Shown here piece by piece: positions 11,582-39,332 of a stretch of 44,669 bases of DNA. The stretch is taken from NCBI GenBank assembly GCA_913056225.1, contig CAJXMQ010000001.1:1-44669 (forward strand). The letters run 5' to 3'. The DNA comes from an uncultured Micrococcales bacterium. Its GTDB lineage: Bacteria; Actinomycetota; Actinomycetes; Actinomycetales; Microbacteriaceae. Both the position numbers and the translations under genes were made by a program. Position 1 is the stretch's first letter, and each line of letters begins with the position of its first letter. The notes beneath the pieces were generated by a model, which saw nothing but the letters and a program-made list of their open reading frames with translations, was not told where the DNA came from and searched no databases.

Positions 11582-11654
11582 TCGGGGTGACAGGACTCGA
11601 ACCTGCGATCCCCTGCTCCCAAAGCAGGTGCGCTAGCCACTACGCTACACCCCG
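11582..11654 (-). tRNA. tRNA-Pro (anticodon UGG), CCA not encoded
   Basis: Hand-folded cloverleaf. Acceptor CGGGGTG/CACCCCG, anticodon stem CCTGC/GCAGG with loop TTTGGGA, T-arm GCAGG-TTCGAGT-CCTGT, discriminator A. Confidence 0.9.
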
Positions 11655-11722: not shown

Positions 11723-11796
11723 GCGGATGTAGCTCAATGGTAGAGCCTCAGTCTTCCAAACTGATGGTGCGGGTTCGATTCCCGTCATCCGCTCCA
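11723..11796 (+). tRNA. tRNA-Gly (anticodon UCC), CCA encoded
   Basis: Hand-folded cloverleaf. Acceptor GCGGATG/CATCCGC, anticodon stem TCAGT/ACTGA with loop CTTCCAA, T-loop TTCGATT, 3' TCCA. Confidence 0.9.
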
Positions 11797-28600: not shown

Positions 28601-29650
28601 ATGGGAGTTTTTTCATCTGCGCGCAAGCGAGTTCTTGGCGTTGTAGCGGCATTACCAATCGCCGCACTAGCACTATCGGGCTGCGCAGCGGCCGAAACTG
28701 AGACTGAACAGGGAAGCCTGGGGGATATCAACATCCAGTTCAGTTGGATTAAGAACGTGGAATTTGCTGGAGAGTACTTCGCAGATACGAATGGCTACTA
28801 CGAGGAAGCCGGCTTCAACTCCGTCAACTTCACAGCCGGACCAACTGCTACCGCAGCTGTGGTTCTCTCGGGTGAAGCGCTGGTGGGTATTTCGGATGCG
28901 ATTGCAGTGACACCTGTAATTCTTGAAGAAGAGGCACCCCTCAAAATTATTGGTGCGACTTACCAAAAGAGCCCATTCACTATTTTGTCTCTGAAGGATG
29001 GGGCAAACATTGAAACTCCACAGGACCTAATTGGAAAAAGAATTGGTGTGCAGGCTGGTGGAAATGAAACACTATTCGACGCAATGCTCCAGGCAAATGG
29101 GATTGATGCCGATCAGGTGACCAAGGTGCCAGTTGAATACGATCCTTCCCCGCTGGTAAACGGTGAAGTCGATGGTTTCCTGGCTTACATCATCAACGAG
29201 TCAATCACCGTTGAGAATCTAGGGTTGGAAACAACAAATCTATTGTTTGCAGACAACGGTTTGCCATTTGTTGCAGAGGCATTCGTGGTCACCCAAGACT
29301 CAATCGATAACAACCGCGAAGCTCTGAAGGCATTCTTGTACGCCACAGCAAAAGGCTGGAAAGACGCTTTAGCTGATCCTGAGGAAGCAGCCCGACTTGC
29401 TGTCGAGGTTTATGGTGCGGATCTAGGTCTGGACATCAACAAGGAGATCCAACAGTCAGTCTCGCAGAATGATCTTCTGATTTTGACTGAAGAAACTGCT
29501 GCCAACGGTCTGCTTACGATTTCTGAGCAGCTTCAGGCTCAGAACATTGAGACCCTTGCTACCGCGGGCTACGAAATCACTGCGGACCAGCTGTTTGACA
29601 TGAGTTTGATTGCAGAGGTTTATGAAGAAAATCCAGAACTTCTGGACTAA
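28601..29650 (+). CDS. ABC transporter substrate-binding lipoprotein, NMT1/THI5-like (NitT/TauT family)
   Basis: Signal peptide with lipobox LALSGC, then an NMT1-like fold (INIQFSWIKNVEFAGEYFA..., GKRIGVQAGG). Confidence 0.8.
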   Translation: MGVFSSARKRVLGVVAALPIAALALSGCAAAETETEQGSLGDINIQFSWIKNVEFAGEYFADTNGYYEEAGFNSVNFTAGPTATAAVVLSGEALVGISDAIAVTPVILEEEAPLKIIGATYQKSPFTILSLKDGANIETPQDLIGKRIGVQAGGNETLFDAMLQANGIDADQVTKVPVEYDPSPLVNGEVDGFLAYIINESITVENLGLETTNLLFADNGLPFVAEAFVVTQDSIDNNREALKAFLYATAKGWKDALADPEEAARLAVEVYGADLGLDINKEIQQSVSQNDLLILTEETAANGLLTISEQLQAQNIETLATAGYEITADQLFDMSLIAEVYEENPELLD

Positions 29651-29660
29651 TCTCTAGCTA

Positions 29661-30482
29661 ATGAATTCAATGGATGCCACTGCCCAAGACCAAAAAGGTT
29701 TGGGCAGTGGCATCACTATTTCTGGGCTGTCAAAAGTCTTCAAAATGGGCAATGATTCAGTCAATGCCTTGGAAAATGCCACCCTTCACTCCGACCGCGG
29801 TAGTTTCTTGTCTTTGCTTGGCCCTTCCGGCTGCGGCAAGTCGACAATTTTGAGAATACTTGCCGGACTGGAAACGCCAACTGCTGGAACCGTAACTGTC
29901 GATGGCATGGATCCAATGGAACTTCGAAGGGATCACCGGCTAGGGATTGCCTTCCAGGACCCAGCTTTGATGCCTTGGCGAAGCGTATATTCAAACATCA
30001 AGCTTCCATTTGAGCTTGCCCGCGTAAAAGCTGATGATGCCCTGATTAATGACCTGATTCAATTAGTTGGTCTGCAGGGGTTTGAAAATGCCCGCCCGGC
30101 TCAACTATCTGGCGGCATGAGGCAAAGAGTTTCAATTGCCAGAGCGCTAGTCGTTCAGCCATCTGTGCTTCTTTTGGATGAACCTTTCGGTGCGCTAGAC
30201 GACATGACCAGGCAACGACTAAACATGGAGCTTCTCAGAATCTGGACAGAGAAGCCGGCAACAACATTGATGGTCACCCATGGCATTTCAGAGGCAATTT
30301 TCCTGAGCGATCAGGTTGCTGTGATGAGTCCCAGGCCTGGTCGTATCAAAGAAATAATTGAAGTAGACCTGCCGAGGCCCAGAACTCCTGATTTGATGCG
30401 AACTCCTGAATTTCATGCCCTTCACGACAGGGCGTCCGATTTATTGTTTGGAGATCAGGGAGTGGCCAACAGCGATGACTGA
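29661..30482 (+). CDS. ABC transporter ATP-binding protein (NitT/TauT family)
   Basis: Walker [10 protein letters not shown], signature LSGGMRQR, Walker B LLLDEP, H-loop VTHG. Confidence 0.9.
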
Positions 30483-31296
30483 GCTGATCTACTCCACTCG
30501 ATCAAGAAAACTTCCTTCTTGGGCTACTGGAATAATCGGCGTTGGAACCACAATCGCTATCTGGTGGATTTTAGCCATCACCGCATTCGCAAATGTTGGT
30601 ATTGGCTCCGATGGCGCAATTCCAACTCCTTTGGAAGTTGTCCAGCAACTGTTTGAAGACGGTTGGGGTTTTTATTTCAGAAACGGGTCAGTGACACTAG
30701 CCGAGGCGGCTATTGGTTTTGCTTGGGGAAATGGGCTGGCCCTAGTGTTTGCAGCTATAGCTCTAATAGTTCCAAGGCTTGAAAATCTAACCACTCAAAT
30801 TGCGATTATTACCTACTGCATACCTATTGTTGCCATCGGGCCGATTGTAAGGCTAATTGTTGGAGCACCTGCCAATGGTGAGCCGGCGGGGGCGGCAATC
30901 GTCTTGGCGGCACTCAGTGTTTTCTTCACCACCATGATCGGCGCTCTCACCGGCGTTAAGTCCACTGATCAGCGAATGTTGGACGTGGTGTCAGCCTATG
31001 GCGGCGGAGTTTGGCAGAAGGTTGTCAAGGTGCAATTACTATCGGCTCTTCCTTCGATTTTTGCGGCGTTCAAGATTGCTGCTCCAGCGGCATTTTTGGG
31101 CGCCATTCTGGGGGAATATGTAGGTGGGCCTGATGTTGGTTTCGGGCCCGCTATGGTGAATGCCCAGCAGTCTCTTGAGGTTGCAAGGGTATGGGGTGTG
31201 GCCCTAGTCTCAGGTTTATTTGCCGGTGCCGGCTACGCGCTTTTCAGCCTGCTGGGAAAACTTCTAACCCCTTGGGCAGAAGGGAGCGCCAAGTGA
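30475..31296 (+). CDS. ABC transporter permease 1
   Basis: About 273 aa with 6 TM helices of the BPD_transp_1 type. I place the start at ATG 30475, overlapping the ATPase stop by 8 nt. Confidence 0.8.
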
Positions 31297-32162
31297 ATTT
31301 CAAAATAGAAGATTCAGCTGACCGCTCCTTGATTGCGGTTCGAAGCAAGGTCAAGCGCGATGCCGCAAAAGAAACCGCCAAGCTTGCCACAACAACCGCT
31401 CTAAACACATTGTTATCGCTGGCTGTTGTTGTGGTTTTGTGGGTTTTTTCACTTTGGGCATTCGATGTTTCACCTTATATTGGCAAGGGCCCGATCGACG
31501 TTTTTGAGTATTTATTCTTAGAAGATGCAGCTGAACATCAAGCTTTGGTGCTTAGCGCTTTGAATCAAACCATGATTGATGCAGCAATCGGTTTTTCCTT
31601 CGGCTTATTCTTTGCAACCTTTATATCTGTCCTGTTCACCGTCTCCAAGGGACTCGAACAGGCGCTGATGCCAATAGCAATGTTGCTCAGAAGCGTTCCG
31701 CTTATTGCTATGGCTCCAATCTTGATTTTGATTTTTGGGAGAGAGCAACTAACCGTCGCTGTGATGGGGGCAATTGTGGTTTTGTTTCCAGCACTTGTGA
31801 ATATTGTTTTTGGACTTAGAAGCGCTTCCAGAGCAATGCTTGATGTGGCAACTGTTTACGGGGCAAACCGCTGGGCTGCATTGCGCTACGTGGCCTTCCC
31901 CAGCTCACTTCCGAGTTTCTTCGCAGCCGTCAAAATTTCCGTTCCGGGAGCCATCACCGGTGCCTTATTAGTGGAATGGTTGGCAACTGGTCAGGGAATT
32001 GGGTACGGCATTATCTCCGCCGTTGGTAGAGCCAAAACCGATGAGGTCTGGGCCTATGTTGCAACAATCACAGTTGTTTCCATCGTTCTTTATAACTTGG
32101 TGGCACTATTTGAAGGCTACATTCTCAAAAAATTCGCCCCGCAGGTTTGGAAAAACCGCTAG
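31293..32162 (+). CDS. ABC transporter permease 2
   Basis: About 289 aa with a hydrophilic N-terminus followed by 6 TM helices. The GTG start overlaps the permease 1 stop (GTGA). Confidence 0.8.
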   Translation: MNFKIEDSADRSLIAVRSKVKRDAAKETAKLATTTALNTLLSLAVVVVLWVFSLWAFDVSPYIGKGPIDVFEYLFLEDAAEHQALVLSALNQTMIDAAIGFSFGLFFATFISVLFTVSKGLEQALMPIAMLLRSVPLIAMAPILILIFGREQLTVAVMGAIVVLFPALVNIVFGLRSASRAMLDVATVYGANRWAALRYVAFPSSLPSFFAAVKISVPGAITGALLVEWLATGQGIGYGIISAVGRAKTDEVWAYVATITVVSIVLYNLVALFEGYILKKFAPQVWKNR

Positions 32163-32532: not shown

Positions 32533-33336
32533 TTAGCCGTGTAAGGGCTTGCTGGCATCTATTGCCTCGGGCAATAATCCGCAATCAAACACGACATCGG
32601 ATCCCAGAGAGTAGCTCACTGTGTCAGGTCTAATTGCATTAATAAGTTTTTGAGGGTGATTAGACATGGTCAATCCAGATGGACCCTTGCCGATGAGCAA
32701 GGGTGCGATAGAAATGTGAATGCGACCGAGCAATTCACTTTCAATGAATTTAGCGATTGTGTAACTCCCGCCCTCAACTAGCAGGTTGCCCATCCCTTTT
32801 GAACGCAATGCTTCCACAATCTCATTTGGACTGAACTGGCCATCATGAGCTTCCAGCCTAATTACCTCAACTCCGCCTGGACGGGTGGTCTCGACTGCTT
32901 GAATAACAAATCTGCGGGTTCCATCATCTGCCAACACTGGAGAGTCATTAGGTAACCGCCCATTTGGATCAATCACGATTCGAGCAGGGTTTGGCCCCTC
33001 GCAGTGTCTGACCGTAAGCCTGGGACTGTCGTGCAATGCGGTCTTAACTCCAATAATTACCCCATCAACCAGAGCTCGAATTCTGTGCAGGTGAACAATC
33101 CCATCAGGACCAGAAACCTCTCCTGAATCACCCGAAACTGTGGCAACTCTCCCGTCTAAAGACTGTCCGATCTGACCAATGATTAGTTGCTGGTTGTCCC
33201 TGCGAGCAATTGGTGAATAAAGATTAAGTGCTTCCTGCTCGGATTCGCTAAAGTCTCCGCAGCAAGCGCAGGCTTTTTCGCTACGGACATCCAAAAGCCT
33301 CTGCCAAACTTTGTCACTCACATTAAGTTTTTGCAT
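32533..33336 (-). CDS. RibD C-terminal-domain (dihydrofolate-reductase-like) reductase with a Cys-rich N-terminal extension
   Basis: GQIGQSLDGRVAT...HRIRALVDGVIIGVKTALHDSPRLTVR matches the RibD_C reductase signature. An extra ~45 aa N-terminus contains ACACCG. The start overlaps the upstream stop by 14 nt. Confidence 0.75.
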   Translation of the reverse strand: MQKLNVSDKVWQRLLDVRSEKACACCGDFSESEQEALNLYSPIARRDNQQLIIGQIGQSLDGRVATVSGDSGEVSGPDGIVHLHRIRALVDGVIIGVKTALHDSPRLTVRHCEGPNPARIVIDPNGRLPNDSPVLADDGTRRFVIQAVETTRPGGVEVIRLEAHDGQFSPNEIVEALRSKGMGNLLVEGGSYTIAKFIESELLGRIHISIAPLLIGKGPSGLTMSNHPQKLINAIRPDTVSYSLGSDVVFDCGLLPEAIDASKPLHG

Positions 33337-34111
33337 GTTGAGCCCCTAATTCAAAGTCTTTTGGCAAAGCCAAAATGTCCCCGTGCCCAATGGTGCAGTC
33401 AGTTTCTCGAGCTTGGCTGGTTCTGATCTCAGCCCAAAAAACAGCATCCTGTTGTCCGGTTTCCAGGGCAGCCTCAGCTATGCCCTGCACCAAGGCTTGC
33501 TGAAGCTCTTCCTCCGCAGGTCCAAGCTGCCAGGAACTTGGGGCGGTGAAGACATCGAAGCCCGCAGATTTGAAGACTTCCTCCGCTACTGAAACCGAGT
33601 CTGGGCCAAGTGCTGATCCAAAACCCTTATCGCTGCGTTGATGATTATTGAAAGCCTGGGTTATTGAGTTATCAAGTGAATTCTCTGGCATCCAGTTCAT
33701 AACACCGTCATAGGAGAGTGCGAAATAGACAGGCACCTGAACCTTTTCAACAAAGTTTTCAAGCCACTGCCTGCTCACCAGGTCAATCAAAGCCGATGCG
33801 GTAACAAGGGTCGCATTCTCCAAAGGAAGCTTCTCTAAATCCGAAATGTCCAATCGATGCAAACTCGCTCGATCACCTAGCTCGGCACCGGCAACCTCCA
33901 GAAGTGAATCATCATTATCAACCAGTCTCCACTCAGCTCCCTCAGGTAAAAAAGGCTCCAAGGCTCTAACCGTGGAACCGGTTCCACTACCCAGGTCAAC
34001 AATTACTGGATTCTCACCGGCAGCCTCAACGGCTTTGGTCAATAATTGAGCATCCCTGGCTGCGTGGTCAGATTGTTCTCTGAGAGCAAGCCACTGTTTG
34101 GAAAAAGCCAA
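33323..34111 (-). CDS. Class I SAM-dependent methyltransferase
   Basis: Motif I VDLGSGTGS is followed by an acidic post-I residue (LVDND). TTG start lies 2 nt after the PTPS-like stop. Confidence 0.75.
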   Translation of the reverse strand: MAFSKQWLALREQSDHAARDAQLLTKAVEAAGENPVIVDLGSGTGSTVRALEPFLPEGAEWRLVDNDDSLLEVAGAELGDRASLHRLDISDLEKLPLENATLVTASALIDLVSRQWLENFVEKVQVPVYFALSYDGVMNWMPENSLDNSITQAFNNHQRSDKGFGSALGPDSVSVAEEVFKSAGFDVFTAPSSWQLGPAEEELQQALVQGIAEAALETGQQDAVFWAEIRTSQARETDCTIGHGDILALPKDFELGAQHAKT

Positions 34112-34113
34112 GC

Positions 34114-34509
34114 CTAAATCTCTCCCTCAAACCAGGCTCTGGCAATGTGGCTTTCCTGAAGTGAGATTCGAAGACTCTTTAGGCGTCCTCCGTCTGAAAG
34201 CTTTCCGGCACGAACCTGTTCGGACAGTTTTTCAAATATGTGCTTGCACAAAAACTCAGTGGTGGTGAACTTTCCTTCTAGCTCAGGGTGCTCATCCAAG
34301 TTTTGATATCTCAACGGATCTAGAACTTCGGAAAGTAGCTCCGTTGCAATCCCGATATCAACCACCAAGCCATGTTCGTCAATATCCTCTGCCATAAACG
34401 CCGCATCAACAGTGAAGGTCGCTCCGTGCATCCCCTGAGCAGGGCCAAACACCTCTGCAGGCAAGGAATGACCAATCATGATGTGGTCTCTTACTTCAAC
34501 GGCGAACAT
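34114..34509 (-). CDS. 6-pyruvoyl-tetrahydropterin synthase (PTPS/QueD)-like protein with a degenerate active site
   Basis: T-fold pattern (GHSL ... GMHGATF ... GLVVDIG ... NLDEH). The canonical C-x3-HGH is replaced by AQGMHGA. I place the start at MFAVEV..., overlapping the upstream stop as TAATG. Confidence 0.65.
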   Translation of the reverse strand: MFAVEVRDHIMIGHSLPAEVFGPAQGMHGATFTVDAAFMAEDIDEHGLVVDIGIATELLSEVLDPLRYQNLDEHPELEGKFTTTEFLCKHIFEKLSEQVRAGKLSDGGRLKSLRISLQESHIARAWFEGEI

Positions 34510-35471
34510 TAAGCCTCCCCTAAATCTTGGTAGCGAATGCGGTGACACAGGGTGTTGTTGTCATTCAAAACCGATTCATAGATATTGGCAATATCTGAAA
34601 AATCTGTCTCACCACTTATCAAAACATCAACAACAGGGTTTTCCAGCAATTCCAATGCCTTCCTAATTCTTCGCTGGTGACTCCAGCGATTAGCTCTATC
34701 CGGTGGCAGATTTCCCACTTGAGAACTAATCAGCCTCAGCCTTTTGCTGTGAAACTTGCCCCCCAGCGAAATTTGTATTGCTTTGTCCCCGTACCAGCTC
34801 GCCTCAACCACTCTGGCCTCCTGCGCAGCAGACTCAATGGCAAGAGCGATACCTTCCTCAGTTGCAGAGGTGTGGATTACAACATCACAGCCAATAGGTG
34901 CCTTAGCAGGCTCAGCAAACGAGCATCCAAATTTAATTGCGACCCGCTCACGCTCTGGATTTATGTCTACCAGGGTGACTTCGGTGCCCGGAATTTGCTT
35001 GACTAGGTAGCCAACCAGTGAGCCAACAACGCCTGCGCCAATGACTGCTACGCGATCACCCGCCGAAACCCCACTATCCCAAACAATATTTAGAGCAGTC
35101 TCCATGTTTGCCGCCAAAATTGCTGTTTCTGCAGGGAGATTCTTGGGCAAAGGGTGTAACAACTGCTCTGGAAGTCGGAACTGAGTTTGATGAGGATGTA
35201 GAGCGAACACTTCTTTGCCCGCAAGTTCACCTTCCATTACTCGCCCAACTGCGCAGTAGCCAAACTTTACGGGAAAAGGAAAATCTCCCTCCTGGCTTGG
35301 AGCCCTCATGCTGGTGGTCTCGGATTCAGGGACTCGGCCTTCAAAAACCAATCGCTCTGTGCCGCGACTGATGCCACTAAACAGGGTTTCCACCAAAACA
35401 CCATGGCCCAACTCCCCTGTCCGTAACTCGGCAGAACCAGGAGATATGCACCAGAGTGCCATTGGATTCAT
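34509..35471 (-). CDS. Medium-chain dehydrogenase/reductase, BchC-like subgroup
   Basis: 320 aa with the Rossmann motif VIGAGVVGSLVG. The N-terminal FSGISRGTE occupies the position where classical Zn-ADHs carry the GxCHSD zinc ligands. Confidence 0.7.
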   Translation of the reverse strand: MNPMALWCISPGSAELRTGELGHGVLVETLFSGISRGTERLVFEGRVPESETTSMRAPSQEGDFPFPVKFGYCAVGRVMEGELAGKEVFALHPHQTQFRLPEQLLHPLPKNLPAETAILAANMETALNIVWDSGVSAGDRVAVIGAGVVGSLVGYLVKQIPGTEVTLVDINPERERVAIKFGCSFAEPAKAPIGCDVVIHTSATEEGIALAIESAAQEARVVEASWYGDKAIQISLGGKFHSKRLRLISSQVGNLPPDRANRWSHQRRIRKALELLENPVVDVLISGETDFSDIANIYESVLNDNNTLCHRIRYQDLGEA

Positions 35472-35737
35472 TTCAGTAACTGTCTTTCAAGTTTTGGTAG
35501 GCAATACGAGAATTCAAGCTGAGACAAAGGTTGTATTTTGTTTGGATTTGAAAATTTCTAAAAAACTCAATTTGGGGCACTATGTGAGAGCACCTGTAAA
35601 AGGCTCTGCTCACAATGGTTTCAGTCGACCCCTTCATTTCCCAATTCTAACAGAACAGAATTAGCTGCAGCCCTGTAGAAAAATCACTGGTTAAACTGAA
35701 GAGGTGTCGCTAATGGAAAAGTCAATTCAATCTTTGA

Positions 35738-36487
35738 ATGGATTCCTCCATGGCTAGCTGGCTTGGTTTTCTGAGATCGTTGATCATTTACAACAACCCG
35801 CAAAGACGTCTTGTTTGGAAAAGGTTTTATCGCAAACTTCTCAACCCCGAAAGCCTAGCTTTTGATATCGGAGCGCACGTTGGCACCCGAACCCGAGCCA
35901 TGAGAGCCGCTGGTGCCAGAGTAGTAGCCCTTGAACCGCAACATCCGTTTGCATATTTTTTGGAAAAAACCCTTCCAAATGACGTGGTTTTTTTAGAAGC
36001 AGCCGCCGGTGCTATCGAAATGGACGCCGAGATGGCTGTATCAAGCAAGCATCCGACTGTTTCTTCAATGAGAACCGAATTCGTTGATGATGCCTCTACC
36101 GCCAAGGGATTTGAAAAAGTGCAGTGGGACAAAAAGCAAACCGTCACAATAGTCACCCTGGATGGTTTGATTGAAAAACACGGCCAACCCGACTACATAA
36201 AAATCGATGTCGAGGGTTATGAGTTGCAGGTTTTATCTGGTTTGTCAAAACCTGTTCCGCTGATATCGGTGGAGTATTTGCCCGGTTTTCCAAAACTCAC
36301 CAAGGAAGTCGTGACAAGATTGCTCGAACTTGGTGATTATGAATTTAACCCAGTGGTTGGCGAAAATGCCAAATTCCTCTGGTCTGAATGGAAGCAGGCT
36401 GATCAATTGCAGTCTTGGATGCAAACCCAGCCTGCAACTGGCAAGGCTTCTGATTTATTTGCCAGGCTGAAATCAGAGGCTTTCTAA
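35738..36487 (+). CDS. FkbM-family methyltransferase
   Basis: AFDIGAHVGTRT motif and ...IKIDVEGYELQVL... are typical of FkbM-type methyltransferases. It is the only plus-strand gene in the cluster. Confidence 0.75.
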   Translation: MDSSMASWLGFLRSLIIYNNPQRRLVWKRFYRKLLNPESLAFDIGAHVGTRTRAMRAAGARVVALEPQHPFAYFLEKTLPNDVVFLEAAAGAIEMDAEMAVSSKHPTVSSMRTEFVDDASTAKGFEKVQWDKKQTVTIVTLDGLIEKHGQPDYIKIDVEGYELQVLSGLSKPVPLISVEYLPGFPKLTKEVVTRLLELGDYEFNPVVGENAKFLWSEWKQADQLQSWMQTQPATGKASDLFARLKSEAF

Positions 36488-37516
36488 AGCACGGCCGACA
36501 ATCTCTGCGGTTTGCTTCCAGCTGTTGAGCTTTTTTCCTGCGTCTTCGCTCGCGGCGGACATGTCATTTCTCAGGAATTGGTCTGTAAGGACTTCAGACA
36601 AGGCCTTGGCGAAACTTTCTGGATCATCAACTGGAACCAGTTTGCCTGCACCGGCAGCAACCGTATCTACAACCGCACCCGCCTGGCAGCTGATAATTGG
36701 CAGGCCGTAGCTCATCGCCTCAGCAAACACCATTCCGTATCCCTCATAGCGAGTGGCGAGTGCAAAAACACTTGCTTGGCAGTAAAGATCATTTAGTTGA
36801 CTGGTTGAAACACTGCTCTGGATTTTGACTCGATCCGCTAACCCAAAAACTGCAATGAGCCTCTCTAGCTCCGAGGCGTAGGCCTTGTCATGCACCGACC
36901 CTGCAATTACTGCCTGCCAGTCCAGGTGAGTGATTTGAGACAAGGCTTGCAGCAACACATCATGTCCTTTTCTGTGAACCTGAATTCCCACAGAGAGCAC
37001 CAATGGTGGGTCTGTCTTTGCCTGATTGCATTCAAAAAAATCAATCCCTGGTTCAGCTACGGTAATTTTGGAACCTTCGATTCCATACTCTTGGACGAGC
37101 AGATTCTTTGTGTGGTGGCTTGGGACAATCACGTGCTGGCAGGCATTGATGTTCACTCGCTCAGTTTCAAAAAACTGCTCGCGCAATTTAGGCTCCAAAT
37201 TTCCCTCATAGGCAAGCGGGTGATGAATCAATGCAACCACTTTTGCCCTCAAAGAGTTCATAACCTCAGAATCCATCGCTCCTAGAGCCAGGCCGTCAAT
37301 TAACAAAGTGTCATCGGGTGTGAAAGCTGAAAGCTGTTCTCGAGCGTATTGGATGTCGGCCTGATTTGGTTTGGGAAAGCTATCTCCCAAAGATAAGTGG
37401 CTAACTGATAAGCCTTGCTTTTCTAGCTCCGCAAGCAATTTCCGATCATAGATATACCCCCCGGTTTGAATGCTTAGATCACCGGGGATTACCAAAATCA
37501 AGGACTTAGAACTCAC
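36473..37516 (-). CDS. GT-B glycosyltransferase, family 4 (Glycos_transf_1)
   Basis: EX7E motif (YEGYGMVFAEAMSYGLPII). The GTG start overlaps the upstream stop (GTGA). Confidence 0.8.
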   Translation of the reverse strand: MSSKSLILVIPGDLSIQTGGYIYDRKLLAELEKQGLSVSHLSLGDSFPKPNQADIQYAREQLSAFTPDDTLLIDGLALGAMDSEVMNSLRAKVVALIHHPLAYEGNLEPKLREQFFETERVNINACQHVIVPSHHTKNLLVQEYGIEGSKITVAEPGIDFFECNQAKTDPPLVLSVGIQVHRKGHDVLLQALSQITHLDWQAVIAGSVHDKAYASELERLIAVFGLADRVKIQSSVSTSQLNDLYCQASVFALATRYEGYGMVFAEAMSYGLPIISCQAGAVVDTVAAGAGKLVPVDDPESFAKALSEVLTDQFLRNDMSAASEDAGKKLNSWKQTAEIVGRALESL

Positions 37517-38517
37517 TGACTACCAGCCCCCAATTGGTCTGACCTATTTTTTTTACCGCTCCAAATAGCAACCATTACCCCCGGGGCGGTGACCGCCAAA
37601 GAGAGTAGCCCAAATGCAAAGCTGGAAGCTAAGCCCTCCACGCCTGGAAGACCTACCAGCGGGAACAGAATAACTGCTGCAGATTCTCTGATCCCCCAAC
37701 CACTAATTGTGAGAGGAATAAGCATGGCAAGCAAAATCAATGGCACCAAAGCCAAAGCAGCAAAAAAAGACAGATCTGAACCAATCGCCCACGCTACAAA
37801 AGTAAATCCAGCAATATTGGTGATAACGGTGGCAAGACTTAGCGAGAGCTGAGCCCATCTAACTGATGGCGCCAACAAAGCAATCTTGGACGCCTGAATG
37901 ATGCTCGAAAGTCCTTTCTTGATTTTTCCCCTAGAAGTTTTGGTTGTCGCCCAAAAAGCCACCACCAGAACAATCAAAATGACCAAAAACAGGCCCAGCA
38001 GAGCTAAAAGCCATCCCGGCCAATAGATAAGCCCAAAAACAGATGTGAGACCAAAGGCCGCTAGCATCACTGCTATCAAAACTGACAATCCCGCCATTCT
38101 CTCCAGGAAAACAGCCTGGCCAGACACCACTAATCCTGCCTGTGATCTGGATCTGAATGCTCTGGCGGCGTCTCCAATAACCCCACCGGGAAGAGTCTGA
38201 TTCACGGCCTGGGATAAGAAATATTCACGGACCGCAGTTTTCTTATCCAACCTAACCCCGAGCTGAGCTGCGGTTAGTCTCCATCTGAGGGCAGAAAAAA
38301 CAATCTGCAGAACCAAGGCTGCCGCGGCCAAAACAAGCCAAAGTAGGTCAGCTGACACAATCAGCTGAATTGCCCGCTCACCATCAACCAGTTGCCACAA
38401 AAGCGACAGCAACACAATTGCAAAAACAAACCGCGATACCCCAATCACTGTCCTAGTGGCTGTTGATCTTGGAGAAGACTGAGGTTTGACAGCGTTTGCA
38501 GAAAAAAGATTTTTCAA
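37513..38517 (-). CDS. Flippase-like polytopic membrane protein (UPF0104 / lysyl-PG-synthase TM-region family)
   Basis: About 8 TM helices and an Arg-rich loop pattern (SALRWRL..., GDAARAFR) like the MprF flippase-like domain. I place the start at TTG 38517, overlapping the upstream TGA. The ORF-track start at 38604 would overlap the upstream gene by 91 nt. Confidence 0.65.
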   Translation of the reverse strand: MKNLFSANAVKPQSSPRSTATRTVIGVSRFVFAIVLLSLLWQLVDGERAIQLIVSADLLWLVLAAAALVLQIVFSALRWRLTAAQLGVRLDKKTAVREYFLSQAVNQTLPGGVIGDAARAFRSRSQAGLVVSGQAVFLERMAGLSVLIAVMLAAFGLTSVFGLIYWPGWLLALLGLFLVILIVLVVAFWATTKTSRGKIKKGLSSIIQASKIALLAPSVRWAQLSLSLATVITNIAGFTFVAWAIGSDLSFFAALALVPLILLAMLIPLTISGWGIRESAAVILFPLVGLPGVEGLASSFAFGLLSLAVTAPGVMVAIWSGKKNRSDQLGAGSQ

Positions 38518-39287
38518 CGCGCCCGCCTCAGCCAAATGACGTCTTTCCCAAACGACCAAATGAGAGTTGCCGCAACCGTGAAAGCAACCGTCAATACAAA
38601 CCATGACGGGAATATTGGTGCATTTAGGCCAATCAGGGATGCCACCTGAATCACCGAAACAACTTTTCGGCTGTATCTATCGGGCAGTGGCCTATTCAAC
38701 CAGGGAAGCAGGTTGGAGAAAGCTATAAACAGGTATCTTGGCAAGGCCAACAAAATAATCAGAGGTGAAGCTAGGCCAGCAGCCCAAATGTTGACTGCCA
38801 AAACTATAGCGAGTGCCGAATCCACCTCCATGTCCAACCGAGCACCAAAATCCGTGACACCACCAGTCTTCCTGGCATAAAACCCATCAAAGCCGTCTAA
38901 AACCAATGCGGGGATGGCTATGAAGACAATTATCCAAGGATTTACAGAAACAAAAATTGCAGAGAAAAGTGCTGAAACGGCCACAAACCTGCTCAACGTA
39001 ATCAGGTTTCCAACGCCTAGGTTTCTGTTTGGAAATCCTTTTCGAAACCAAAGGATTATTAGCAGGGAACCCAGTGAATAAAAGATCGTTGCAAGGAACA
39101 AAGCCATGGGTTGAAAACCAACCAACAAAGACGCCAGCAGCAGCATTGGTATTACGCCAACTAACAAATAGCCGATCAGCTTTTTTAGCACTCCGCGCCT
39201 CAATGGAGGCGTTTCTCCAAGCCCAGATTTATCGCTGGTGGGTGGCTTTCGCATCTGCCTCAGTTTACTATCGAGACCTGTCTCCAT
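38514..39287 (-). CDS. CDP-alcohol phosphatidyltransferase family protein
   Basis: Perfect family signature D-x2-DG-x2-AR-x8-G-x3-D-x3-D, seen as DGFDGFYARKTGGVTDFGARLDMEVD. About 6 TM helices. Confidence 0.85.
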   Translation of the reverse strand: METGLDSKLRQMRKPPTSDKSGLGETPPLRRGVLKKLIGYLLVGVIPMLLLASLLVGFQPMALFLATIFYSLGSLLIILWFRKGFPNRNLGVGNLITLSRFVAVSALFSAIFVSVNPWIIVFIAIPALVLDGFDGFYARKTGGVTDFGARLDMEVDSALAIVLAVNIWAAGLASPLIILLALPRYLFIAFSNLLPWLNRPLPDRYSRKVVSVIQVASLIGLNAPIFPSWFVLTVAFTVAATLIWSFGKDVIWLRRAR

Positions 39288-39332
39288 CTAGGGATTTCGA
39301 TCGCTGACGTAGCCCGGCCTAGCAAAGAAAAA

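What the first reader, a model, noticed from the sequence alone, without database searches (positions are those of the whole stretch)
32533..39287. Eight-gene cluster joining pterin-type tailoring enzymes to glyco/phospholipid assembly genes, with no known product
Seen in sequence: eight tightly packed genes in three transcription units.
- Unit 1 (minus strand, 39287->36473): CDP-alcohol phosphatidyltransferase -> UPF0104 flippase-like protein -> GT4 glycosyltransferase. Start and stop codons overlap (TTGA, GTGA).
- Unit 2 (minus strand, 35471->32533): BchC-like MDR dehydrogenase -> PTPS-like protein -> class I SAM methyltransferase -> RibD_C-like reductase. Junctions are TAATG, a 2-nt gap and a 14-nt overlap.
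- Unit 3: a single plus-strand FkbM methyltransferase between the other two.

Established knowledge:
- PTPS/QueD T-fold enzymes act on 7,8-dihydroneopterin triphosphate.
- RibD_C/DHFR-like reductases act on pyrimidine and pterin rings or their ribosyl side chains.
- As I recall, GT-B glycosyltransferases make pterin glycosides in cyanobacteria and Chlorobium (biopterin glucoside, cyanopterin, tepidopterin), and cyanopterin carries an O-methylated sugar.
- CDP-alcohol phosphatidyltransferases join a CDP-activated phosphatidyl or alcohol group to a hydroxyl acceptor.
- UPF0104 is the flippase-like half of MprF.

Inference: the set looks like a pathway that builds a reduced, methylated, glycosylated pterin-like (or related heterocycle) moiety and possibly links it to, or exports it with, a phospholipid. 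I know of no characterised pathway with this composition, and none for actinobacteria. It sits between a transporter operon and the mrp operon, outside the conserved core synteny.
Basis: partly seen in the sequence, partly recalled or inferred. Interest (0 to 1): 0.8.

Follow-up and report, generated by a model that had tools for sequence, protein, structure and literature searches.

The report
Orphan GTP-derived lipid head-group gene cluster
The eight genes are real and belong to a gene cluster conserved in hundreds of bacterial species, which probably builds a small ring compound from GTP and attaches it to a membrane lipid; nobody has yet identified its product.

Summary
All eight ORFs, their Pfam domains and their overlapping junctions are as described.

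The adjacency is not chance. A core of MDR dehydrogenase, PTPS-like protein, methyltransferase and RibD_C recurs in 81 related loci from Rhodobacterales, Rhizobiales, Gammaproteobacteria, marine Microbacteriaceae and Streptomyces. GT4, FkbM, the CDP-alcohol transferase and the flippase-like gene lie within 10 kb in most of them.

The PTPS-like protein is neither QueD nor a true PTPS. It is a "PTPS-IV" T-fold protein (FGPAQ signature), 50% identical to S. coelicolor SCO6650 (PDB 3D7J). It lacks the catalytic Cys and one zinc-binding His.

Relatives add GTP cyclohydrolase II, an IMPase-family phosphatase, a membrane sulfatase-family transferase and OpgH. Fused CDP-OH::sulfatase and CDP-OH::flippase-like proteins exist.

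So the pathway most likely starts from the GTP cyclohydrolase II product, not from dihydroneopterin triphosphate. It makes a methylated, glycosylated 2-aminopyrimidine or pterin-type polyol. That polyol is then linked to a phospholipid and flipped outward. In Proteobacteria it is probably passed on to periplasmic glucans.

The window comes from an Aquiluna-like actinobacterium that seems to have acquired a reduced version by horizontal transfer. The product is unknown, and I found no paper on the whole cluster.

The parts
32533..33336 (-). RibD_C-only reductase with no deaminase domain. It has a conserved ~50-aa N-terminal extension.
   Evidence: Pfam RibD_C, E 3e-31. The closest solved structures are 2,5-diamino-6-ribosylamino-4(3H)-pyrimidinone 5'-phosphate reductases 6P8C and 2AZN, E 1e-21. 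It scores below the curated cut-offs of all RibD equivalogs. It is present in 73 of 81 related loci.
33323..34111 (-). Class I SAM-dependent methyltransferase of unknown substrate.
   Evidence: Pfam Methyltransf_25/11/12, weak hits. No informative solved relative. Present in 79 of 81 loci, always next to the T-fold gene or to GT4.
34114..34509 (-). PTPS-IV (SCO6650-type) T-fold protein of 131 aa. It lacks one zinc-binding His and the catalytic triad.
   Evidence: PDB 3D7J (SCO6650), E 1e-37. FGPAQ signature present (PMC5445326). In an 82-sequence alignment the QueD Cys, the second His of HGH and the Asp-His pair are all replaced, while TTE and ESH are invariant.
34509..35471 (-). BchC-like medium-chain dehydrogenase without the usual catalytic zinc ligands (GISRGTE, FGYC).
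   Evidence: Pfam ADH_zinc_N, weak. NCBIfam bchC scores 46.9 bits against a cut-off of 291. The nearest solved relatives are butanediol, iditol and xylitol dehydrogenases. Present in 79 of 81 loci.
35472..35737 (.). AT-rich 266-bp divergent intergenic region between the MDR operon and FkbM. It is the presumed promoter region.
   Evidence: Sequence read directly. No consensus promoter above background. No Rfam match.
35738..36487 (+). FkbM-family methyltransferase.
   Evidence: Pfam Methyltransf_21, E 1e-14. TIGR01444 scores 77.8 bits, above its cut-off of 37.7. Present in 45 of 81 loci. In Paracoccus loci it travels with the soluble genes even where GT4 is absent.
36473..37516 (-). Retaining GT4 glycosyltransferase.
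   Evidence: Pfam Glycos_transf_1, E 1e-31. The nearest solved relatives are sucrose-phosphate synthase, MshA, PimB' and PimA. In Rhizobiales and Streptomyces it sits between the PTPS-IV and MT genes.
37513..38517 (-). MprF-type flippase-like membrane protein (LPG_synthase_TM only, no synthase domain).
   Evidence: Pfam PF03706, E 4e-33. Multiple hydrophobic segments. TTG start overlaps the CDP-OH stop as TTGA. A CDP-OH::LPG_synthase_TM fusion exists (P0282).
38514..39287 (-). CDP-alcohol phosphatidyltransferase, an integral membrane protein.
   Evidence: Pfam PF01066, E 1e-14. The full motif D-x2-DG-x2-AR-x8-G-x3-D-x3-D is present in LDGFDGFYARKTGGVTDFGARLDMEVD. It scores below the cut-offs for PgsA, PIP synthase and PssA. 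Fusions to Sulfatase and to LPG_synthase_TM occur in relatives.
28601..32162 (+). Possible extra part (uncertain): a ThiY-like ABC importer made of an NMT1/THI5-type binding protein, an ATPase and two permeases.
   Evidence: Pfam NMT1, ABC_tran and BPD_transp_1. The binding protein is closest to the FAMP-binding ThiY structure 3IX1, E 4e-14. No TPP riboswitch was found. The same transporter lies near the cluster in an Aquiluna MAG. An orthologous transporter lies between a CDP-OH::flippase fusion and an orthologous GT4 in L084.

Best explanation
This is a reduced, horizontally acquired copy of the 'PTPS-IV cluster' in an Aquiluna-like marine actinobacterium. The cluster is a widely conserved but uncharacterised system of 8 to 12 genes.

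**Soluble half (steps inferred).**
1. GTP is opened by GTP cyclohydrolase II. That gene is not in this window and is presumably the housekeeping RibA.
2. The RibD_C enzyme reduces the ribosylamino group of 2,5-diamino-6-ribosylamino-4(3H)-pyrimidinone 5'-phosphate to ribitylamino, without deamination.
3. The BchC-like dehydrogenase re-oxidises a side-chain hydroxyl.
4. The PTPS-IV T-fold protein, which lacks one zinc-binding His and the catalytic triad but keeps the residues that anchor a 2-amino-4-oxopyrimidine ring, binds this intermediate. It most economically helps close it to a dihydropterin-type ring. Reduction followed by 2'-oxidation is formally equivalent to the Amadori step of GTP cyclohydrolase I.
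5. The class I and FkbM methyltransferases add two methyl groups.
6. GT4 adds a sugar to the polyol side chain.

**Membrane half.**
1. The CDP-alcohol phosphatidyltransferase joins the polyol or glycoside to diacylglycerol phosphate from CDP-diacylglycerol.
2. The MprF-like flippase moves the new lipid to the outer leaflet.

**Fate of the lipid.** In Proteobacteria, an OpgB/LtaS-like sulfatase-family transferase then probably passes the phospho-head group to OpgH-made periplasmic glucans. The window lacks that transferase and OpgH. Here the end product would be the outer-leaflet lipid itself, or a donor for an unknown acceptor.

**What is shown.** Gene content, subfamily membership, conserved synteny and the fusions.

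**What is inferred.** Every chemical step and the order of the steps.
For: **Cluster identity and conservation.**
- In 81 loci the counts are PTPS-IV 81, MDR 79, MT 79, RibD_C 73, GT4 53, FkbM 45, CDP-OH 41, sulfatase-family 40, IMPase 40, GTP cyclohydrolase II 37, flippase-like 33 and OpgH 24.
- 44 of 58 full-length loci carry at least one envelope gene within 10 kb.
- Gene order differs between lineages. GT4 lies between PTPS-IV and MT in Rhizobiales and Streptomyces, and CDP-OH lies next to MDR.

**GTP cyclohydrolase II entry point.**
- The cluster-linked GTP cyclohydrolase II keeps the Tyr of canonical RibA in all 36 proteobacterial copies and has Met in Streptomyces.
- RibD_C is closest to reductases of the diamino product.
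- There is no deaminase domain.
- An independent neighbourhood study links PTPS-IV to PF00925 and PF01872 (PMC5445326).

**T-fold protein.**
- 3D7J matches at E 1e-37.
- Cys, the second HGH His and the Asp-His pair are lost, while TTE and ESH are invariant.

**Lipid link.**
- The CDP-OH motif is intact.
- A CDP-OH::Sulfatase fusion lies inside a complete cluster (L086).
- A CDP-OH::LPG_synthase_TM fusion exists.
- No cytidylyltransferase was seen: only eight of the longer proteins among the 150 best CDP-OH relatives were domain-scanned, and the other lengths leave no room for an extra domain. This is weak support for CDP-diacylglycerol as the donor.

**Glucan link.** OpgH passes the MdoH equivalog cut-offs. 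It sits directly beside the core genes or beside CDP-OH, sulfatase and flippase.

**Horizontal transfer.**
- The window's proteins are 74-79% (PTPS-IV) and 61-65% (MDR) identical to marine proteobacterial copies, against 50% and 47% to Streptomyces.
- A neighbour-joining tree of MDR nests the window and Pontimonas inside the marine proteobacterial clade.
Against: - No product, intermediate or enzyme activity is known for any member except what I recall for SCO6650 and SCO6655.
- Twelve full-length loci, mostly Paracoccus, carry only the soluble genes within 10 kb. The soluble product can therefore stand alone, and the lipid link may be optional.
- The Streptomyces locus has no RibD_C, and its GTP cyclohydrolase II is the Met variant. 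The first steps are therefore not uniform across lineages.
- RibD_C scores below all curated equivalog cut-offs. It could instead be a DHFR-like pterin reductase acting late in the pathway.
- The window lacks GTP cyclohydrolase II, IMPase, the sulfatase-family gene and OpgH.
- The sulfatase-family protein has no solved or curated close relative. 'OpgB-like' therefore rests on the Pfam domain, the membrane topology and the genomic context.
- A published remark says PTPS-IV is involved in F420 synthesis (unpublished data cited in PMC5041015).
Confidence: 0.45

Rival explanations
1. There are two independent modules. The soluble genes (RibD_C, PTPS-IV, MDR, two methyltransferases, with or without GT4) make a free, soluble pteridine or pyrimidine glycoside such as a cofactor, signal or pigment. 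The CDP-OH transferase, the flippase-like protein (and in Proteobacteria the sulfatase-family enzyme and OpgH) make an unrelated glycophospholipid or glucan decoration. The two modules are linked only by co-regulation or by transfer together on the same mobile DNA.
For: Paracoccus-type loci have the soluble set without any envelope gene within 10 kb. L084 has the CDP-OH::flippase fusion, GT4 and PIG-L without a visible PTPS-IV gene, though the contig ends right after GT4. A Palleronia plasmid carries only the soluble set plus GT4 and IMPase.
Against: The association holds across three phyla despite repeated rearrangement. CDP-OH lies next to MDR in Streptomyces and Rhizobiales. GT4 is translationally coupled either to the flippase-like gene (window, GTGA) or to PTPS-IV (Rhizobiales). 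A complete cluster contains a CDP-OH::Sulfatase fusion. No ordinary acceptor-specific family cut-off is reached by the CDP-OH enzyme.
Confidence: 0.25
2. The genes supply precursors for flavin or deazaflavin cofactors. GTP cyclohydrolase II, RibD_C, PTPS-IV and the IMPase form an alternative route to 5-amino-6-ribitylaminouracil for riboflavin or F420/FO. PTPS-IV would provide the missing step, for example deamination.
For: [quoted passage not shown] RibD_C resembles the archaeal and fungal reductases whose pathway needs a separate deaminase. An IMPase-family phosphatase is present in 40 of 81 loci.
Against: Clustering of all ORFs of 100 aa or more in the 81 loci found no family resembling FO synthase, lumazine synthase, riboflavin synthase or CofC/D/E among the conserved families. 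The unexplained clusters checked were antisense shadows of known genes, fragments or shadows of the opgH gene (found later), or low-complexity ORFs. This route does not explain the MDR, the two methyltransferases, GT4, CDP-OH, the flippase-like protein, the sulfatase-family protein or OpgH. No FMN riboswitch was found.
Confidence: 0.08
3. This is ordinary metabolism annotated literally: QueD or a folate-bypass PTPS, RibD, and phosphatidylinositol/PIM or phosphatidylglycerol synthesis genes that happen to be neighbours.
For: PGAP names homologues '6-carboxytetrahydropterin synthase' with a queuosine GO term, and 'RibD family protein'. GT4 shows distant similarity to PimA, PimB' and MshA.
Against: The CxxxHGH and ExxHGH motifs are absent. 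QueD TIGR03367 scores 38.5 bits against a cut-off of 89. The PgsA, PIP-synthase, PssA, MshA and BchC models all score far below their cut-offs. No queC/E/F or fol genes are nearby.
Confidence: 0.02

Closest known systems
Streptomyces coelicolor SCO6648-SCO6655 region. It includes SCO6650, a PTPS homologue with a crystal structure (3D7J), and SCO6655, a GTP cyclohydrolase II paralogue.
   Same: The set is orthologous: CDP-OH transferase, MDR, PTPS-IV, GT4, MT, a flippase-like protein and GTP cyclohydrolase II, in one locus. PTPS-IV is 50% identical (E 1e-37). From memory (Spoonamore et al. 2006, 2008), SCO6650 lacks zinc and the catalytic triad and has no PTPS activity.
   Different: The Streptomyces locus has no RibD_C, FkbM or IMPase. 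Its GTP cyclohydrolase II carries Met instead of Tyr; I recall that this variant stops at the formylamino-pyrimidine. The window has RibD_C and FkbM but no GTP cyclohydrolase II. Its proteins are much closer to marine proteobacterial copies. The function of the Streptomyces cluster is itself unknown.
Early riboflavin/F420 pathway of archaea and fungi (GTP cyclohydrolase II/III followed by the 2,5-diamino-6-ribosylamino-pyrimidinone 5'-phosphate reductase ArfC/Rib7).
   Same: It shares the GTP cyclohydrolase II partner in relatives, and a stand-alone RibD_C reductase closest to 6P8C and 2AZN.
   Different: There is no deaminase, lumazine synthase, riboflavin synthase or FO synthase. Scores are below the equivalog cut-offs. 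The genes are joined to T-fold, MDR, methyltransferase, glycosyltransferase and lipid genes.
Making a phospholipid head group, flipping it and transferring it: the CDP-alcohol transferase PgsA, MprF (synthase plus flippase), and OpgB/OpgE/LtaS/EptA, which move phospho-head groups from lipids to periplasmic glucans, teichoic acid or lipid A.
   Same: The enzyme classes and the membrane logic are the same. Synthase::flippase and synthase::transferase fusions occur. OpgH lies beside the cluster in 24 loci.
   Different: The head group would be a GTP-derived heterocyclic polyol or glycoside instead of glycerol, lysine or ethanolamine. The sulfatase-family member has no close curated or solved relative. 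The window has neither that enzyme nor OpgH.
Pterin glycoside pathways of cyanobacteria and Chlorobium.
   Same: A GT-B glycosyltransferase and methyltransferases are combined with a PTPS-family protein.
   Different: Those pathways use GTP cyclohydrolase I and a catalytic PTPS acting on dihydroneopterin triphosphate. Here the T-fold protein lacks the catalytic residues and its partner is GTP cyclohydrolase II. Those pathways involve no lipid genes.
First steps of mycothiol and PI/PIM synthesis (MshA followed by a phosphatase; PIP synthase followed by a phosphatase; PimA).
   Same: A GT4 enzyme related to MshA and PimA is combined with a CDP-alcohol transferase. In relatives there is also an IMPase-family phosphatase. 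This fits the scheme 'polyol-phosphate acceptor, then dephosphorylation'.
   Different: No equivalog cut-off is reached. The polyol would be the side chain of a pyrimidine or pterin rather than inositol.
Toxoflavin (tox) cluster.
   Same: It diverts the GTP cyclohydrolase II product to a SAM-methylated heterocycle.
   Different: The tox cluster uses a full RibD with a deaminase domain, plus ToxC and ToxD. None of these is among the conserved families here. The tox cluster has no T-fold, MDR, GT4 or lipid genes.

Membership tests
PTPS-IV subfamily of COG0720 (SCO6650 type) | FGPAQ signature motif | tested here: met
   The sequence reads EVFGPAQGMHGATF. FGPAQ is invariant in 82 family members. 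The motif is named as PTPS-IV-typical in PMC5445326.
PTPS-IV subfamily of COG0720 (SCO6650 type) | Loss of the catalytic Cys, of the second His of the HGH pair (one of the three zinc-binding His), and of the Asp-His pair | tested here: met
PTPS-IV subfamily of COG0720 (SCO6650 type) | Close similarity to SCO6650 (PDB 3D7J) | tested here: met
   phmmer E 1e-37 over residues 1-128. Identity is about 50%.
PTPS-IV subfamily of COG0720 (SCO6650 type) | Genomic neighbourhood containing RibD_C and GTP cyclohydrolase II | tested here: inconclusive
   RibD_C lies two genes downstream in the same operon in the window. GTP cyclohydrolase II is absent from the window but present in 37 of 81 related loci.
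QueD / PTPS-I (6-carboxytetrahydropterin synthase) | CxxxHGH motif and the TIGR03367 curated score | tested here: not met
   The motif is replaced by AQGMHGA. The score is 38.5 bits against a cut-off of 89.25.
PTPS-III (folate bypass) and PTPS-II (biopterin) | ExxHGH or CxxxxxHGH motif | tested here: not met
   Neither motif is present. The motifs are as given in PMC5041015.
RibD / ArfC / Rib7 pyrimidine reductases | RibD_C fold, and a score above the equivalog cut-off | tested here: inconclusive
   The RibD_C domain is clear at 109 bits. TIGR01508 scores 97 against a cut-off of 186, and TIGR00227 scores 111 against 150. The best solved relatives are reductases of the diamino substrate.
BchC | TIGR01202 curated score | tested here: not met
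   46.9 bits against a cut-off of 291. Only the N-terminal GIS-x-GTE pattern resembles BchC.
CDP-alcohol phosphatidyltransferase superfamily | D-x2-DG-x2-AR-x8-G-x3-D-x3-D motif in a polytopic membrane protein | tested here: met
   The motif is read in the translation. Pfam score is 55.6 bits against a cut-off of 22. Several hydrophobic segments are present.
PgsA / PIP synthase / PssA (specific CDP-alcohol transferases) | Curated equivalog score | tested here: not met
   pgsA scores 37 against a cut-off of 109, PIP synthase 21 against 170, and pssA 22 against 107.
MprF | Flippase domain plus a C-terminal aminoacyl-PG synthase domain | tested here: not met
   Only LPG_synthase_TM is present. 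NF033480 scores 15.6 against a cut-off of 600.
Periplasmic-glucan (OPG) modification system (OpgH plus an OpgB/OpgE-type transferase) | OpgH and a membrane sulfatase-family transferase in the locus | tested here: not met
   Both are absent from the window. In relatives OpgH is present in 24 loci and the sulfatase-family gene in 40 of 81 loci.
Anti-phage defence / conflict systems (raised by the weak GT4-conflict Pfam hit) | A match to PADLOC models | tested here: not met
   No significant PADLOC hit. The only match is an E 2e-4 methyltransferase-fold hit.

The most novel reading that the evidence does not exclude
The cluster encodes a previously undescribed class of membrane lipid whose head group is a GTP-derived, methylated and glycosylated pteridine or aminopyrimidine polyol. 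This head group would be made by a route that bypasses GTP cyclohydrolase I, with reduction by RibD_C followed by oxidation by the MDR substituting for the Amadori step. In Proteobacteria the lipid would serve as donor for a new substituent on osmoregulated periplasmic glucans. In marine actinobacteria a ThiY-like ABC importer would salvage the head group.
Probability: 0.3. Interest if true: 0.85.

Novelty: new variant of a known kind. Interest (0 to 1): 0.65.

Why it matters
The PTPS-IV family has had a crystal structure since 2008 and still has no function. Annotation pipelines continue to label it QueD with a queuosine GO term. This analysis shows that the family is the signature gene of an 8-to-12-gene system found in hundreds of species, from Streptomyces to roseobacters, rhizobia, methanotrophs and streamlined marine actinobacteria.

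The analysis links that system to GTP cyclohydrolase II chemistry, to the synthesis and flipping of a phospholipid head group, and in Proteobacteria to OpgH glucans. If the model holds, it would add:
- a new branch of GTP metabolism,
- a new lipid head-group class,
- and possibly a new glucan decoration.

It also makes the old question of what SCO6650 and SCO6655 do directly testable, by lipidomics and glucan analysis in genetically tractable carriers.

That a relative with a genome of about 1.4 Mb (Pontimonas, L009) keeps nine of these genes suggests the product matters at the cell surface.

Tried and rejected
- **Literature.** Ten full-text searches were run. They covered combinations of the enzyme names, the SCO gene numbers, 'pterin lipid' phrases and OPG terms. 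Nothing was found on the cluster's function. Only the PTPS-IV naming and its GCH II/RibD_C neighbourhood turned up (PMC5041015, PMC5445326). The Spoonamore 2006 and 2008 papers and Phillips 2012 are not held, so what I say about them is from memory.
- **Riboswitches and other RNAs.** An Rfam scan of the window and five loci found only tRNAs.
- **Promoter and terminator scan.** Nothing above the shuffled background.
- **Defence-system reading of the GT4-conflict hit.** PADLOC was negative.
- **Composition as evidence for transfer.** The GC content of the cluster equals that of its flanks, so it is uninformative.
- **OpgG next to OpgH.** Not found in four loci checked.
- **Solved relatives.** None was informative for the methyltransferase or the sulfatase-family protein.
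- **ORF clustering.** Several apparently conserved families without Pfam hits were checked. Most of those checked against the mapped genes were antisense shadows in high-GC DNA. The rest were junk ORFs, and two of them (clusters 16 and 26) were later explained as shadows or fragments of opgH. My first clustering also missed OpgH, which surfaced only through a plasmid annotation.
- **Not attempted.** Structure prediction and fold search, because the only informative targets already have a solved homologue or belong to folds that do not discriminate between substrates.

Full report
**1. The observation**

The eight ORFs are present at the stated coordinates.

The junctions were read directly from the sequence:
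- TAATG between MDR and PTPS
- a 2-nt gap between PTPS and MT
- a 14-nt overlap between MT and RibD_C
- TTGA between CDP-OH and the flippase-like gene
- GTGA between the flippase-like gene and GT4

Two start sites should be corrected. The PTPS-like gene starts at 34509 and encodes 131 aa, like all its homologues. The flippase-like gene probably starts at the TTG at 38517.

Six of the proteins have no hydrophobic segment. The CDP-OH and flippase-like proteins are polytopic membrane proteins.

The flanks are as described. A ThiY-type ABC importer lies on one side and mrpA-G on the other, within an ordinary housekeeping chromosome that also carries IleRS, ValRS, ClpXP, trigger factor and PutA.

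**2. The adjacency is not chance**

I kept 80 loci with flanks of up to 10 kb and added one Streptomyces locus.

Mapping the window's proteins and four extra families onto these 81 loci gave the following counts:

| Family | Loci (of 81) |
|---|---|
| PTPS-like | 81 |
| MDR | 79 |
| MT | 79 |
| RibD_C | 73 |
| GT4 | 53 |
| FkbM | 45 |
| CDP-OH | 41 |
| Sulfatase-family | 40 |
| IMPase-family | 40 |
| GTP cyclohydrolase II | 37 |
| Flippase-like | 33 |
| OpgH | 24 |

Of 58 loci with full flanks, 44 carry at least one of CDP-OH, sulfatase-family, flippase-like or OpgH. The 12 that carry none, nor GT4, are mostly Paracoccus.

The gene order varies:
- Marine Rhodobacterales, the gammaproteobacteria Congregibacter and Pseudohaliea, and Pontimonas have the window's arrangement.
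- Rhizobiales, Xanthomonas and Streptomyces have MDR-PTPS-GT4-MT, with CDP-OH next to MDR.

That criterion is therefore not met.

**3. What the PTPS-like protein is**

Its best solved relative is SCO6650 of Streptomyces coelicolor (3D7J, E 1e-37). The next hit is a true PTPS at only E 0.02.

The protein carries the FGPAQ signature. A published neighbourhood-network study calls this signature typical of the 'PTPS-IV' subfamily. The same study found PF00925 (GTP cyclohydrolase II) and PF01872 (RibD_C) in that subfamily's neighbourhood (PMC5445326).

- The QueD Cys of CxxxHGH is replaced by Ala.
- The second His of the HGH pair is replaced by Ala.
- The Asp-His pair is replaced by Tyr-x.
- The first His, the T-T-E motif and a Glu in ESH are invariant.

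This agrees with what I recall of the SCO6650 structure paper (Spoonamore et al. 2008): no zinc, no catalytic triad, no PTPS activity, but a pocket suited to a pterin-like ring.

The protein is therefore not QueD (TIGR03367 scores 38.5 against a cut-off of 89), and it is not PTPS-II or PTPS-III.

[quoted passage not shown] Nothing in the 81 loci supports that remark. No FO-synthase, lumazine-synthase or CofC/D/E-like family is conserved there.

**4. The extra genes in relatives change the reading**

Proteobacterial loci carry the following additional genes:
- **GTP cyclohydrolase II** with a ~190-aa N-terminal extension. All 36 proteobacterial copies keep the Tyr of canonical RibA (KMRAY). The Streptomyces copy has Met (KLRAM). 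I recall from Spoonamore et al. 2006 that this change makes SCO6655 stop at the formylamino-pyrimidine.
- **An IMPase-family phosphatase**.
- **A polytopic sulfatase-family protein**.

The window's RibD_C protein has no deaminase domain. It is closest to reductases of 2,5-diamino-6-ribosylamino-4(3H)-pyrimidinone 5'-phosphate (6P8C and 2AZN, E 1e-21). It scores below every curated equivalog cut-off.

The window itself has no GTP cyclohydrolase II, IMPase, sulfatase-family gene or OpgH. It must rely on genes elsewhere for the first step.

**5. The membrane half**

The CDP-OH protein has the complete catalytic motif. It reaches no cut-off for PgsA, PIP synthase or PssA.

A search of 1.8 billion representative proteins found 1042 relatives at E ≤ 1e-10. 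I domain-scanned eight of the longer proteins among the best 150. Two of them are fusions:
- **CDP-OH::Sulfatase** (803 aa). It sits in a complete cluster in CP022303.1: fusion, flippase-like, GT4, IMPase, then FkbM on the opposite strand, then MDR, PTPS-IV, MT and RibD_C.
- **CDP-OH::LPG_synthase_TM** (556 aa).

No fusion to a cytidylyltransferase was seen among the proteins scanned, and the other lengths leave no room for an extra domain. This weakly favours CDP-diacylglycerol as the donor.

A plasmid annotation in Methylosinus trichosporium OB3b showed mdoH beside the core genes. Following this lead, OpgH/MdoH homologues that pass NCBIfam equivalog cut-offs were found in 24 loci. They lie directly next to the core genes or next to CDP-OH, sulfatase-family and flippase-like genes.

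Established knowledge (from memory) is that phosphoglycerol and phosphoethanolamine on periplasmic glucans are transferred from membrane phospholipids by OpgB and OpgE, which are membrane enzymes of this same superfamily. The simplest model for Proteobacteria is therefore:
1. make a special phospholipid,
2. flip it to the outer leaflet,
3. hand its phospho-head group to OpgH-made glucans.

YceI-like genes (12 loci) and endonuclease/exonuclease/phosphatase-family genes (14 loci) are further recurrent neighbours.

**6. A chemical proposal (inference)**

Reducing the ribosylamine (RibD_C) and then oxidising the 2'-hydroxyl is formally equivalent to the Amadori rearrangement of GTP cyclohydrolase I. 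The MDR would carry out the oxidation; it resembles BchC and polyol dehydrogenases. The result would be a ketosamine that closes onto the 5-amino group to give a 7,8-dihydropterin with a phosphorylated dihydroxypropyl side chain.

A T-fold protein that has lost its catalytic residues but keeps the ring anchor would fit this ring closure or a following step. Two methylations (MT and FkbM), a glycosylation (GT4, related to MshA and PimA) and a dephosphorylation (IMPase, in relatives) would follow. The polyol or sugar hydroxyl would then serve as the acceptor for the CDP-OH enzyme.

Equally possible is a ribityl-diaminopyrimidine or 8-ribityl-pteridine product. I cannot discriminate between these with the tools available.

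**7. Origin of the window's copy**

The flanking proteins are 72-92% identical to those of an Aquiluna sp. MAG. In that MAG the cluster also lies between mrpA-G and the same ABC transporter.

The cluster proteins are much closer to marine proteobacterial copies than to Streptomyces:

| Protein | Identity to marine proteobacterial copies | Identity to Streptomyces |
|---|---|---|
| PTPS-IV | 74-79% | 50% |
| MDR | 61-65% | 47% |
| GT4 | ~50% | 28% |

A neighbour-joining tree of MDR places the window and Pontimonas inside the marine Rhodobacterales/gammaproteobacterial clade (no bootstrap support was computed).

The cluster also occurs on plasmids and chromids of Palleronia, Neorhizobium, Agrobacterium, Methylosinus, Thiodictyon, Streptomyces and Arthrobacter.

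Horizontal transfer into marine Microbacteriaceae is the likely history. The GC content does not differ from the flanks.

**8. The neighbouring transporter**

The binding protein at 28601-29650 is closest to ThiY, the formylaminopyrimidine-binding protein (3IX1, E 4e-14). No TPP riboswitch precedes it.

In a high-GC contig (L084) an orthologous binding protein, ATPase and fused permease lie between the CDP-OH::flippase fusion and a GT4 that is 47% identical to the window's. A PIG-L deacetylase lies upstream.

The transporter may therefore belong to the system, for example for salvage of an aminopyrimidine-type head group. It may equally be ordinary thiamin-pyrimidine salvage that happens to lie nearby.

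**9. Verdict**

The finding is real. The cluster is a member of an orphan system that is recognised in the literature only in fragments: the SCO6650 structure, SCO6655 biochemistry, the PTPS-IV label and its GCH II/RibD_C neighbourhood.

As far as I can tell from ten full-text searches, three links have not been described: the link to phospholipid head-group synthesis and flipping, the fusions, and the OpgH association.

My estimates for the individual claims are:

| Claim | Probability |
|---|---|
| Orthology to the PTPS-IV/SCO6650 cluster | ~0.9 |
| Origin of the head group from the GTP cyclohydrolase II product | ~0.7 |
| A phospholipid-linked product | ~0.5 |
| Glucan decoration in Proteobacteria | ~0.4 |
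| The specific pterin-by-redox-bypass chemistry | ~0.3 |

Noticed in passing
window 28601-32162 (+); L084 11709-15113: The 'flanking' ABC importer has a ThiY-like, pyrimidine-binding-type substrate-binding protein (3IX1, E 4e-14) and no TPP riboswitch. In L084 an orthologous transporter is embedded between a CDP-OH::flippase fusion and an orthologous GT4.
   Followed up: partly
L040 8040-9854; L033 12779-14401; L011 429-2051; L082 6079-7881 and 20 further loci: OpgH/MdoH, the periplasmic-glucan glucosyltransferase, passes the NCBIfam equivalog cut-offs. It lies beside the cluster in 24 of 81 related loci. No OpgG was found next to it in four loci checked.
   Followed up: partly
L086 10001-12412 (CP022303.1); L084 10001-11671: Natural fusion proteins exist: CDP-OH_P_transf::Sulfatase inside a full cluster, and CDP-OH_P_transf::LPG_synthase_TM. 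In L084 a PIG-L family deacetylase lies directly upstream of the second fusion.
   Followed up: yes
L082 9001-9405; L083 9001-9396: RefSeq/PGAP annotates the PTPS-IV proteins as '6-carboxytetrahydropterin synthase' with a queuosine-biosynthesis GO term. The missing catalytic motif makes this very likely a mis-annotation.
   Followed up: yes
L020 5643-11636 (Aquiluna sp. MAG): In the closest relative that shares the window's flanks, the flippase-like gene was not detected. The IMPase, MDR and RibD_C matches cover only part of each gene. This could be cluster decay or an assembly problem.
   Followed up: no
window 36473-36487; L009 7454-8218: The window lacks the IMPase-family gene that Pontimonas and the Gammaproteobacteria have between GT4 and FkbM. 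In the window, GT4 and FkbM converge and overlap by 15 nt.
   Followed up: partly
L086 8462-9894; L050 4163-5574 and others: A YceI-like gene (12 loci) and an endonuclease/exonuclease/phosphatase-family gene (14 loci, usually next to CDP-OH) recur in Rhodobacterales versions of the cluster. Neither is in the window.
   Followed up: partly
L081 15003-15575 versus 36 proteobacterial loci: The cluster-linked GTP cyclohydrolase II has Met at the position of RibA Tyr105 in Streptomyces, and Tyr in every proteobacterial copy. The Streptomyces locus also lacks RibD_C. The first steps may therefore differ between lineages.
   Followed up: partly
window 11582-11654 (-) and 11723-11793 (+): Two divergent tRNA genes lie between the trigger-factor gene and the next operon. 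They are the only Rfam matches in the window.
   Followed up: no
window 39288-39332: Only 45 nt separate the mrpG stop from the CDP-OH start on the same strand. The lipid genes may therefore be read through from the mrp antiporter operon.
   Followed up: no
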